Assembly: GCA_048886685.1 (NCBI GenBank)
Contig: JBHLKM010000003.1
Span: 64,001 to 128,000 of the forward strand
Direction: 5' to 3'
DNA: 64,000 nt
From: Candidatus Hodarchaeota archaeon
GTDB lineage: Archaea > Asgardarchaeota > Lokiarchaeia > Sigyniarchaeales > SOKP01
Shown: one piece after another, positions 12,046 through 14,217 of the stretch
Layout: the number at the start of each line of letters is the position of its first letter
Position numbering within the stretch: the first letter of the stretch is position 1
Translations under genes and position numbers: made by a program
Notes under the pieces: generated by a model
What the model saw: only the letters and a program-made list of their open reading frames with translations
The model's database searches: none
Told to the model about the DNA's origin: nothing

Positions 12046-13352
12046 TTGAAGAAAGTAGCAATAATAGGTATAGGCATTACACCTTTTCGAGCACGATATC
12101 TAGATAAAACATATTTCGAACTAGCATATGATGCTACAAGCCTAGCTCTCGAAGATGCCAATAAAAATGGTGCGGATATTACTCATAAGGATTTGCAGTC
12201 AACTGTCTACGGGATTTATAACGAACTATTTGAACGTCAATTCATGCCTGATATTTTTGTTAATAGCTATCTTGGCATGAATAATAAACCAGGAACACGT
12301 ATCGCTTCAGGAGGTGCAACTGGGGGATATACGGTTAGAATGGCTTATGCAGAAGTAGCTTCAGGACTTTCAGATTTATGTTTATGCATCGGAGTTGAGA
12401 AGTGTAATGATTGCTATGATGAACAAACTGGAGTGACTACTCCTGAAGTACTTAACGCCATTGCTTATAGTGCGGATATGACGTATATTATATAGTAACA
12501 TAATTACTATATGAGCGGAAGAATATCCGATGGGAAAATATTGTTTGGATGTCCCAACTATCCCCATTGATGGCAGCTTCATCATATGTTTCAATGGTTA
12601 ATGCTCACTTTGAGGAATTTGGAAATCCAACAGAAGAACAGATGGCATTAGTTTCAGTAAAAAATCATGGTAATGCAATTAATAATCCTAAAGCTCAATC
12701 GCCAATGAAAATTACAGTAGAAGATGTTATGAATTCAAGAATTATTTGTTATCCTTTTAAATTATTAGATTGCTGTCTTTATTCTGAGGCCTCTGCCGCC
12801 TTAATACTAGCCAATGAAGAAAAAGTTAAGGAATTAAAGATAGAAAAACCGATTTGGATTTCTGGAGTAGGTGCCGCTAATACAGACTGTTTTATAGGGA
12901 ATAGAGAAGATATGGGAAGGTTGTATTCAAATATTTATGCAGCAAAAGCAGCCTATAAAATGGCACAATTAGACTATGACAAAATCAAAAGTCAAATTGA
13001 TTTAGCAGAATTGCATGATGCTTTCTCTGGACAAGAGGTTATCTCCTACGAGGAATTAGGATTTGTAAAATTCGGAGAAGGCGGTAGTTGGATTGAATCA
13101 GGAGGACCACTAATGGATGGTGAATTACCATGTTGCCCTTCAGGAGGGCTTATTGGGTGTGGTCATGCTGTAGGGGCTACGGGGATTATGTCCACAGGAG
13201 AGGCAGCACTTCAATTGAGAGAAGATGCTGGAAAGCATCAAGTGAAGACAATTAAAAATGGAAGAGCTATTTCTCATTCAATTGGGGGTCCTGGTGCAGC
13301 TTATGCTGCGGTTATTGTGATGGAAAATGAGGAGGGGATTAGTAAAAAATGA
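12046..13352 (+). CDS. Thiolase-family (SCPx/Ltp-type) protein interrupted by two putative BHB-type introns; join(12046..12486,12521..12536,12568..13352), 413 aa
   Basis: The N-half (KKVAIIGIG...SGGATGG...GVEK) and C-half (VSVKNHGNA, DLAELHDAF, PSGGLIGCGHAVGATG) are in different frames. Removing 34+31 nt yields one ORF that restores the D-x-x-Y-E-x-P motif seen in paralogs. TTG start 8 nt after GGTG. Confidence 0.85.
12487..12520 (+). other. Putative archaeal BHB/BHL mRNA intron 1 (34 nt)
   Basis: 11-bp intron hairpin (12488-12498/12504-12514), 7-bp exon-exon stem CGGAUAU/AUAUCCG, central helix ACGU/GCGG, 3-nt bulges AU^A and AA^G at the frame-restoring junctions. Confidence 0.8.
12537..12567 (+). 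other. Putative archaeal BHB/BHL mRNA intron 2 (31 nt)
   Basis: Central helix UGGG/CCCC, bulges AA^A and AU^U, intron stem AUA/UAU plus GUU-GG/CC-AAC closing an AUGU loop. Removal restores the frame. The junction could sit 1 nt to the left (12536-12566), which would give Leu instead of Met. Confidence 0.7.
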
Positions 13353-13843
13353 GTAATGAATTTCAAGCTCATCAGATAAGAGATATAATTAAGATTAATT
13401 ATAAATATACCATGGGAGGTCAATCCAAATTTTTCCTAGAGTTAATGAAAAATAAGAAGATTTTAGGAGCAAAATGCTCTAAATGTGGGAAGATTTGGAT
13501 GCCCCCTAGAATTAATTGCTCAGATTGTTATGTACCTGCTGAATGGAAAGAAGTGAAACAAACTGGTATCATAGAAGTGAGTACAATTGTCTGGTTTACC
13601 ACCTCCGCTTTTATCAAAAATATTCCATATGCTACAGGATATATTAAATTAGACGGAGCTGATACAGCCCTATTGCAAGGAATTTTTTCAGATAATTTAG
13701 TGCCATCAAAAATTAAAAAAGGGAAACGTGTGAGAGCTGTATTTCAAAAAGAAAGAGAGGGAAAAATGACAGATTTCTTTTTTGTTCCTGAAGATGAGTA
13801 TGAGAATTGGATAAATAAACCAGAATACGAAGGAGGAGATTAG
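13349..13843 (+). CDS. DUF35 Zn-ribbon/OB-fold protein (thiolase partner)
   Basis: CSKCG..MPPR..CSDC and OB-fold IKLDGADTAL. Overlaps the thiolase stop (ATGA coupling). Confidence 0.92.
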   Translation: MSNEFQAHQIRDIIKINYKYTMGGQSKFFLELMKNKKILGAKCSKCGKIWMPPRINCSDCYVPAEWKEVKQTGIIEVSTIVWFTTSAFIKNIPYATGYIKLDGADTALLQGIFSDNLVPSKIKKGKRVRAVFQKEREGKMTDFFFVPEDEYENWINKPEYEGGD

Positions 13844-13845
13844 TA

Positions 13846-14217
13846 TTGGGAGTTGCGAGTGAAGCTTTAAAAAAAATTATTGAAAGGATGAATAAAATAT
13901 CTAAAGCTCAACAAGTGTTTGTTACGGATATTGGAGGGAATTCAGTAAATTGGAATATGGTATTTCAATTTAATTTAGATAATGAAGATCCATTTTATTT
14001 GGTAATTGAAAATCAAAAGGTAGATCTTAAACCTGGTACTGCACATGAAACAGAAATCGTAATGTCTGGAGATAATAATGCAATCGTAAAGATTTGCAAT
14101 GGTAAGGGGGATTTCACGCATGCTATCAGTCGTGAAGAAATAACAGTGGAAAAAGGTAAAGTTATAGATGTTATTAGATTAACTAGAGCAATAACAATTG
14201 TTTTAAAAGCAGAATAA
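13846..14217 (+). CDS. SCP2 sterol/lipid-binding domain protein
   Basis: FQFNL...FYLVI..QKV...G.DFTHAI....ITVEKG pattern; context downstream of thiolase and DUF35. Confidence 0.75.
   Translation: MGVASEALKKIIERMNKISKAQQVFVTDIGGNSVNWNMVFQFNLDNEDPFYLVIENQKVDLKPGTAHETEIVMSGDNNAIVKICNGKGDFTHAISREEITVEKGKVIDVIRLTRAITIVLKAE

What the first reader, a model, noticed from the sequence alone, without database searches (positions are those of the whole stretch)
12527..12587. Intron 2 (31 nt) and possible ordered splicing through the micro-exon
Seen: helix UGGG(12531-34)/CCCC(12562-65) has three G-C pairs and a mismatch at the exon-proximal position, as in intron 1. Bulges are AA^A (12535-37) and AU^U (12566-68). 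The intron stem is AUA/UAU, then GUU.GG/CC.AAC around loop AUGU. Both introns start with A. Cutting here gives ATG GGA A|TG ATG (M-G-M-M). The micro-exon is used by intron 1's exon stem, so intron 2's exon stem is weak in the precursor. After intron 1 is removed, the new junction AUGAA can pair with UUCAU (12578-82), and AUAUGA (12476-81) can pair with UCAUAU (12582-87). Inference: splicing may be sequential, intron 1 first, acting as a two-step post-transcriptional switch on the operon's first enzyme.
Basis: inference. Interest (0 to 1): 0.75.

Follow-up and report, generated by a model that had tools for sequence, protein, structure and literature searches.

The report
Paired tRNA-type mini-introns in Asgard gene
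A 31-base insert in a lipid-metabolism gene of an uncultured Asgard archaeon is very probably a real tRNA-type intron. It travels between species together with a neighbouring intron 16 bases away, but the proposed 'intron 1 must go first' switch is not supported.

Summary
The intron is real at the DNA level. Removing 12487-12520 and 12537-12567 gives a 413-aa thiolase-fold ORF colinear with about 100 intron-less orthologous alleles. The junction codon is Met, never Leu, and both halves of the gene show dN/dS of 0.03-0.05. The genome encodes a two-subunit EndA with the broad-specificity loop, and RtcB.

The same intron pair occurs in four other Promethearchaeota species from two further genera. 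These alleles are not a clade (AU p=0.0001) but share a flanking exon tract of up to about 130 nt, which points to horizontal spread with co-conversion. This one gene family holds 45 distinct 28-35-nt BHB-shaped inserts at 11 sites.

Obligate ordered splicing is not supported. Intron 1's exon stem persists after its removal, and the folding cost of BHB2 does not fall in any of five lineages. The proposed new pairings cost +7.6 kcal/mol or more and are poorly conserved. Lone introns with equally weak exon stems are common. Intron 1 may still be cut faster, as the better-folded substrate. Splicing itself was not observed.

The scan noted this intron class before in other Asgard genomes. The papers I could search confirm only cbf5 inside a coding sequence.

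The parts
12046..12486 (+). Exon 1 of a Cys-less thiolase-fold gene (TTG start, 147 codons); first gene of a thiolase-DUF35-SCP2 operon
   Evidence: dN/dS 0.026-0.045
12487..12520 (+). Intron 1, 34 nt, BHB with 11-bp intron stem, 3/4 central helix and 7-bp exon stem; dominant fold (p about 0.5-0.65)
   Evidence: one two-sided and two one-sided pair-keeping changes across five lineages
12521..12536 (+). 16-nt micro-exon (E-Y-P-M-G plus 1 nt); 12523-29 form intron 1's exon stem, 12531-36 form intron 2's central helix strand and bulge
   Evidence: invariant in all five carriers, including codon CCG found in 6% of intron-free alleles
12537..12567 (+). Intron 2, 31 nt, relaxed BHB; length invariant in five lineages; changes confined to a 5'-arm bulge, the loop, position 22 and the 3' end
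12531..12534 (+). Exon strand of intron 2's central helix, pairs with 12562-12565 (three G-C pairs invariant; outer pair U.C, U.U or U-G)
12545..12557 (+). Conserved inner hairpin of intron 2: 12545-48 with 12554-57, 5-nt variable loop
   Evidence: 4 pairs, 100% paired in 5 lineages
12537..12558 (+). Cryptic 22-nt alternative BHB (helix 12531-34/12553-56), same 5' cut, in frame, would add 3 residues (G-I-S-P-L-M); favoured by folding only in this genome
12473..12479 (+). 5' strand of intron 1's exon stem (pairs with 12523-12529); persists as a hairpin after intron 1 removal
12457..12463 (+). Candidate long-range exon-exon helix with 12568-12574 (7 bp) that brackets both introns and can form with intron 1 present; probability strongly window-dependent
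   Evidence: 7/7 in all five carriers; 44 of 125 intron-free alleles
12445..12640 (+). Approximate tract (exons plus both introns) shared with distant carriers: putative co-conversion tract
   Evidence: third-position identity to G148 40/43 inside against 135/250 outside
12568..13352 (+). Exon 3 of the thiolase-fold gene
   Evidence: dN/dS 0.031-0.039
13349..13843 (+). DUF35/ChsH2-like zinc-ribbon plus OB-fold gene (operon gene 2)
   Evidence: hits just under Pfam cut-offs
13846..14217 (+). SCP2 sterol-carrier domain gene (operon gene 3)

Best explanation
12537-12567 is a short, protein-free, tRNA-type (relaxed bulge-helix-bulge) intron in an mRNA. The host's two-subunit EndA cuts after 12536 and 12567 and RtcB joins the exons (inferred). 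With intron 1 also removed, this gives the 413-aa enzyme. The two motifs are adjacent but structurally independent. Intron 1 folds readily and is probably cut first on average; intron 2 is a weaker substrate whose folding does not depend on intron 1 leaving. The micro-exon stays tethered to exon 1 by the 7-bp stem throughout, which should guard against skipping. The pair behaves as a nearly neutral mobile passenger that has moved between species as a DNA cassette with flanking exon sequence. Shown: insert boundaries, frame restoration, purifying selection, conserved pairing, enzymes encoded, patchy non-clade distribution with shared flanks. Inferred: splicing in vivo, order of cuts, mechanism of transfer.
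For: Exact 34- and 31-nt gaps against orthologs, Met junction. dN/dS 0.03-0.05 on both sides. The DNA is not an assembly artefact: a contig from another study covers 12403-12559 with no difference. The same pair occurs in G148, G132, G149 and G153 with 96% of structure cells paired. An unrelated 30-nt intron with a 4/4 helix occupies exactly the intron 2 site, without intron 1, in two lineages; intron 1 occurs alone in G078. All 23 inserts of 30 nt carry in-frame stops, and splicing restores a stop-free frame in 30 of 32 intron-bearing alleles. The EndA alpha subunit aligns to A. pernix EndA with Tyr125/His133/Lys164 and loop Lys44/Arg46 kept; a second, His-less subunit is present. That loop confers cleavage of relaxed motifs (PMC3241643). 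RtcB is present. BHB2 cost is unchanged by intron 1 removal and lies within the range of lone introns. Carriers are not a clade outside the tract (AU p=0.00012) yet share it. Order set by motif free energy among independent BHBs has precedent in C. merolae pre-tRNAs (PMC3978253).
Against: ViennaRNA gives BHB2 a cost of 5-8 kcal/mol in this genome, at the weak end of the family, and prefers a cryptic 22-nt register. The 31-nt intron family was never seen without intron 1 (5 of 5 lineages), which linkage over 16 nt explains but dependence would also explain. Nearest-neighbour folding ignores protein binding, ribosome traffic and co-transcriptional folding. Five carriers give little covariation power (177 of 500 shuffles reach the paired percentage). 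Part of the shared flank is also under structural constraint, so selection contributes to the apparent tract.
Confidence: 0.72

Rival explanations
1. Obligate ordered splicing: intron 1 must be removed so that a new exon-exon pairing forms and licenses intron 2, giving a two-step regulatory switch.
For: The micro-exon bases 12527-29 are shared between intron 1's exon stem and a displaced 3-bp exon stem for intron 2. The 31-nt family always co-occurs with intron 1. [quoted passage not shown]
Against: These introns are tandem, not nested: both strands of each central helix exist in the precursor. The exon stem survives ligation; no drop in BHB2 cost in five lineages. The proposed pairings cost +7.6 to +13.6 kcal/mol and are imperfect in other carriers. 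Many lone introns lack an exon stem. 108 of 140 alleles are intron-free.
Confidence: 0.12
2. In this genome intron 2 is cut mainly at a cryptic 3' site after 12558 (22-nt intron), giving an in-frame protein with three extra residues, either alone or as an alternative splice form.
For: Perfect 4-bp helix and 5-bp intron stem; lowest-cost in-register motif (about 1.5-2.8 kcal/mol against 6-8). Three of the four differences from the G148 intron add pairs to it.
Against: The stem is broken in the other four carriers (cost 4-13 kcal/mol). The insert relative to orthologs is 31 nt. No ortholog has an indel here, and the region aligns without gaps to solved thiolases 6esq and 7yvy. Three pair-forming changes could arise by chance (about 0.15 by simple counting, post hoc).
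Confidence: 0.1
3. The inserts are unspliced lesions and the gene is a recent pseudogene, or is expressed as two halves (149 aa plus a restart at 12549 or 12570).
For: An open frame of 267 aa starts at ATG 12549 inside intron 2, and the genome has many thiolase paralogs.
Against: No other lesion; dN/dS 0.03-0.05. The same interrupted state is kept in five species at 76-85% DNA identity. Up to four such inserts per allele, all BHB-shaped in register. The internal ATG is absent from the four other carriers' introns.
Confidence: 0.04
4. Both introns are ancestral to the family and were lost many times; the shared flanks reflect selection on RNA structure, not transfer. This rival concerns origin only.
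For: Bases needed for BHB1 (codons GCG, ACG, CCG) are invariant in all six intron 1 carriers.
Against: Identity with G148 runs for 68 consecutive exon bases, starting 42 nt upstream of intron 1, and continues well past any paired region. G132 has an intron 1 identical to this genome's at 77% gene identity. Other sites (922, 378) show similar patchy sharing with local runs of identity. It would need dozens of precise losses.
Confidence: 0.15

Closest known systems
BHB intron in the cbf5 pre-mRNA of Desulfurococcales/Sulfolobales (Watanabe 2002; Yoshinari 2006; Yokobori 2009, PMC2738675)
   Same: Short intron inside a coding sequence, relaxed BHB, cut after the second bulge base, needs a hetero-oligomeric EndA.
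   Different: cbf5 has one intron at one site in one gene, and spliced cDNA was shown. Here: two introns around a 16-nt exon, 11 occupied sites and up to four introns per allele in a metabolic gene family, in Asgard archaea, with signs of horizontal spread; splicing not shown.
Multi-intron archaeal pre-tRNAs with nested, obligately ordered introns (Sugahara 2007; Tocchini-Valentini 2009, as cited in PMC3978253)
   Same: Several BHB motifs within a few tens of bases, processed by a heterotetrameric EndA.
   Different: There the last motif forms only after the others are removed. Here both motifs can be drawn in the precursor and computed folding shows no dependence; the substrate is mRNA.
Independent BHB motifs removed in order of free energy in Cyanidioschyzon merolae pre-tRNAs (Soma 2013, as cited in PMC3978253)
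   Same: Best precedent for the likely behaviour: preferred but not structurally forced order.
   Different: Eukaryotic enzyme and tRNA substrate.
[quoted passage not shown]
   Same: Same group of organisms, repeated gains of short BHB inserts, two-subunit EndA, arrival route open.
   Different: Covers tRNA genes only ('mRNA' occurs 0 times in the text); found no general route of arrival, whereas this locus shows shared flanking tracts.
EndA-cleaved BHB element in the 5' UTR of Haloferax HVO_1309 (PMC7714728)
   Same: mRNA substrate of EndA.
   Different: In a UTR, single, does not interrupt a reading frame.
Homing of ORF-less introns with co-conversion of flanking exon (own knowledge: group I and archaeal rRNA introns, free-standing homing endonucleases)
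   Same: Patchy distribution and two-sided shared flanks.
   Different: No endonuclease gene in the introns or seen in the flanks examined; the driver is unidentified, and ordinary homologous recombination could suffice.

Membership tests
Archaeal BHB (EndA-type) intron | 4-bp central helix between exon 5' strand and intron 3' end | tested here: met
   3 of 4 pairs here (all G-C, invariant); 4/4 in G153 and in the unrelated intron at the same site: relaxed form
Archaeal BHB (EndA-type) intron | Two 3-nt bulges on opposite strands, cuts after the second base coincide with insert boundaries | tested here: met
   Homology gap matches the BHB cuts and gives Met as in orthologs. The 3' bulge is closed only by a displaced or long-range exon helix.
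Archaeal BHB (EndA-type) intron | Intron-side helix next to the 5' bulge | tested here: met
   3 pairs invariant plus 4 invariant inner pairs
Archaeal BHB (EndA-type) intron | Exon-side helix in canonical register (strict hBHBh' form) | tested here: not met
   First three exon pairs mismatched at this site in all 7 distinct introns; so relaxed HBh'/BHL-like, not strict
Archaeal BHB (EndA-type) intron | Host encodes broad-specificity EndA and a ligase | tested here: met
   Two EndA subunits, catalytic triad and loop Lys/Arg in one; RtcB
Archaeal BHB (EndA-type) intron | Excision and exon ligation in RNA | not testable with these tools
   Needs RNA data or an in vitro assay
Nested, obligately ordered multi-intron substrate | Second BHB cannot form until the first intron is removed | tested here: not met
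   Both motifs are compatible in the precursor, and cost is unchanged after removal
Nested, obligately ordered multi-intron substrate | Conserved pairing created by the first ligation | tested here: not met
   AUGAA/UUCAU perfect in 1 of 5 carriers, +7.6 kcal/mol
Homing intron | Patchy distribution with co-converted flanks | tested here: met
Homing intron | Site-specific endonuclease encoded in or next to the intron | tested here: not met
   The introns are too short; no such ORF was seen in the flanks examined. The LAGLIDADG matches of this genome lie on other contigs; action in trans is untested.
Self-splicing group I/II or spliceosomal intron | Ribozyme core of hundreds of bases, or GU-AG ends | tested here: not met
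   31 nt, ends A...AU

The most novel reading that the evidence does not exclude
Lokiarchaeia-type Asgard archaea carry a population of about 30-nt, ORF-less, EndA-spliced mRNA introns that colonise many sites of ordinary metabolic genes, create exons as short as 16 nt, and spread between species and genera at the DNA level with two-sided co-conversion of flanking exon sequence, possibly driven in trans by free-standing homing endonucleases. This two-intron cassette is one such travelling unit.
Probability: 0.6. Interest if true: 0.85.

Novelty: new variant of a known kind. Interest (0 to 1): 0.7.

Why it matters
Archaeal protein genes are regarded as essentially intron-free; the papers I could search confirm one BHB intron inside a coding sequence (cbf5). 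Here a single metabolic gene family in the closest prokaryotic relatives of eukaryotes holds 45 distinct inserts at 11 sites, with multi-intron messages and a 16-nt exon. That makes EndA/RtcB a general mRNA-splicing system in this lineage, if confirmed, and means standard annotation splits or miscalls such genes. The shared flanking tract offers a testable route of intron spread, which a 2026 preprint on Asgard tRNA introns lists as open. A 140-nt transcript and recombinant EndA would test both splicing and order.

Tried and rejected
No RNA holder was listed for this region; this is no evidence on expression or splicing, and the intermediates could not be counted. Laying four DNA runs gave contigs only; no joined form could be assessed.

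De novo genome-wide BHB scans gave as many hits in shifted-cut nulls as in the real register, so no genome-wide count is claimed. A comparison with an 800-kb sample of relative G005 (about 585 genes) recovered both introns here plus one more convincing 30-nt insert in this genome, and none in G005.

An AlphaFold model of an intron-less ortholog had pLDDT below 50 over the junction region and could not test tolerance of a 3-residue insert. No source for either intron was found elsewhere in this genome (best other match 9 mismatches). No large or ORF-bearing insert was seen at these sites in the loci held. G024's contig start at exon 3 is an ordinary break; its other contig reads through without introns.

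The Leu junction was rejected. The long-range exon helix 12457-63/12568-74 is kept only as a candidate: its probability ranged 0.0-0.99 with window and species, and it is partly forced by the amino-acid sequence. Tocchini-Valentini 2009 could not be read and is cited second-hand. Seven of my eight literature searches concerned mRNA introns or multi-intron order; none found a paper on BHB introns in Asgard mRNAs, but subscription journals are mostly not covered.

Full report
Setting. The window lies in a 4.4-Mb Asgard genome. Relatives that carry the same feature are labelled Promethearchaeota. The locus is the first gene of a thiolase-fold, DUF35/ChsH2-like, SCP2 operon. The enzyme lacks the nucleophilic Cys where solved thiolase 6esq has it. 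As called, the gene is split into ORFs of 149 and 267 aa in different frames.

Observation. Removing 12487-12520 (34 nt) and 12537-12567 (31 nt) yields one 413-aa frame. Each single removal, and skipping of the 16-nt exon, ends at a nearby stop. Twenty-eight intron-less orthologous loci align with gaps of exactly these sizes and places. The residue at the intron 2 junction is Met in 98 of 105 loci and never Leu, which settles the register in favour of the BHB cut. Both halves are under strong purifying selection (dN/dS 0.026-0.045). A contig from an independent study reproduces 12403-12559 without a difference, and one other run has an extra base in intron 1's loop.

Machinery. The genome has two EndA subunits. 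One aligns to Aeropyrum pernix EndA with the catalytic Tyr, His and Lys and with the Lys44/Arg46 loop that confers cleavage of relaxed motifs (PMC3241643). The other lacks the catalytic His. RtcB is present.

The gene family. Searches of genomes and metagenomes gave 165 loci and 140 distinct alleles, 32 of them interrupted. They hold 45 distinct inserts of 28-35 nt at 11 sites, up to four per allele; 42 start with A and all 23 of 30 nt contain an in-frame stop. Removing them gives a stop-free frame in 30 of 32 alleles. The BHB core is present in 42 of 45 at the called register and in 0-4 when slid. This is partly circular, though 39 of 45 calls are also the best homology register.

The pair at this locus recurs in G148, G132, G149 (one genus) and G153 (another genus). 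Intron 1 occurs alone in G078. An unrelated 30-nt intron with a perfect helix sits at the intron 2 site, without intron 1, in two further lineages. Across the five double carriers intron 2 is always 31 nt. Its three G-C helix pairs, the three proximal stem pairs and a 4-bp inner hairpin never vary, while changes fall in the loop, a 5'-arm bulge and the 3' end. With five sequences covariation has little power.

Is splicing ordered? But that stem is exon-exon, so it survives ligation as a 7-bp hairpin. BHB1 is the dominant fold whether or not intron 2 is present (0.2-0.9 kcal/mol). BHB2 costs 3.8-6.9 kcal/mol on average in the precursor and 3.8-6.8 after intron 1 removal, with no lineage clearly improving. 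The proposed AUGAA/UUCAU pairing costs +7.6 kcal/mol alone and +13.6 with BHB2; the second proposed pairing with BHB2 costs +12.4. The first is perfect only in this genome. Lone introns at sites 381, 444 and 917 have exon stems as poor as intron 2's, and lone-intron costs span 0.3-7.7 kcal/mol, with one outlier at site 911. A weak exon stem therefore needs no special release.

A 7-bp long-range exon helix or a local exon 3 hairpin can close the motif with intron 1 still in place, though their probabilities are unstable. Obligate order is known for nested tRNA introns; order by motif stability is known for independent motifs (PMC3978253). This locus resembles the second case. A regulatory role is doubtful because most alleles lack both introns. 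These conclusions rest on nearest-neighbour folding and comparison, not on RNA data.

A complication. In this genome only, a 22-nt register sharing the 5' cut (3' cut after 12558) folds more cheaply than the 31-nt one and stays in frame, adding three residues. It is broken in the other four carriers, and the site tolerates no indel among orthologs, so I treat it as a minor rival.

Origin. Outside the intron region the carriers are 76-85% identical and do not form a clade (AU p=0.00012 for four of them, p=0.0003 for this genome with G148; G132 was left out because its contig is short). Inside a tract of about 130 exon bases this genome matches G148 at 40 of 43 third codon positions against 135 of 250 outside, with a 68-base identical run and a sharp left edge near 12445. 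G132 matches at 37 of 43 and shares an identical intron 1. My first test of the tract (p=0.00013) used boundaries chosen after looking, so it is descriptive. Similar patchy sharing is seen at sites 378 and 922. The simplest reading is DNA-level transfer with two-sided co-conversion. Donor and driver are unknown; no endonuclease gene was seen next to the locus, and the genome's LAGLIDADG genes lie elsewhere.

Comparison with the record. The papers found confirm one BHB intron in an archaeal coding sequence (cbf5, PMC2738675) and one in a 5' UTR (PMC7714728). A 2026 preprint documents repeated gains in Asgard tRNAs but does not treat mRNAs. The element meets the relaxed, not the strict, BHB definition, and fails the test for an obligately ordered substrate. 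Earlier notes of this scan report the same intron class in other Asgard genomes; they are leads only and I scored on my own tests.

Verdict. A real, very probably EndA-spliced mRNA intron in a mobile two-intron cassette: a new variant of a known kind, interest 0.7. The ordered-switch inference gets about 0.12.

Noticed in passing
G000 C16:73912-74364 (+), L213: Free-standing 336-aa ORF with two LAGLIDADG matches directly after a tRNA cluster that has a very strong 30-nt BHB insert near C16:73643; candidate trans-acting driver.
   Followed up: no
G000 C40:3422-3451 (+); C6 near 98861 (+); C18 near 88180 (+): Further 30-34-nt BHB-shaped inserts that break coding genes in this genome, seen against paralogs or G005.
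   Followed up: partly
window 12537-12558: Genome-specific cryptic in-frame 22-nt BHB inside intron 2; a possible alternative splice form with three extra residues.
   Followed up: yes
L194 (G108), L199 (G089), L196 (G130), L185 (G110), L189 (G094): Orthologs with three or four BHB inserts in the same gene; a separate intron family sits at site 444, only 3 nt from the intron 1 site.
   Followed up: partly
L190 / L157 (G132): Intron 1 is identical to this genome's while intron 2 differs at several positions and the gene is 77% identical outside: very recent exchange, or recombination within the 16-nt exon.
   Followed up: partly
window 12498: One contig of run X5 has an extra T in intron 1's loop (depth 8), a frame-changing indel that is harmless only if the segment is spliced out.
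   Followed up: no
window 12046-14217: The thiolase-fold protein lacks the nucleophilic Cys and is coupled to DUF35 and SCP2 genes, resembling Ltp2/ChsH2-type aldolase modules (resemblance from own knowledge).
   Followed up: partly
L122, L117, L119, L194 (site 922): A near-identical 30-nt intron at another site is scattered over several subclades with local runs of exon identity of up to 76 nt.
   Followed up: partly
window 12501-12570: The exon 3 frame is open upstream through intron 2 and the micro-exon, so gene callers will report a false N-terminus starting at ATG 12549.
   Followed up: yes
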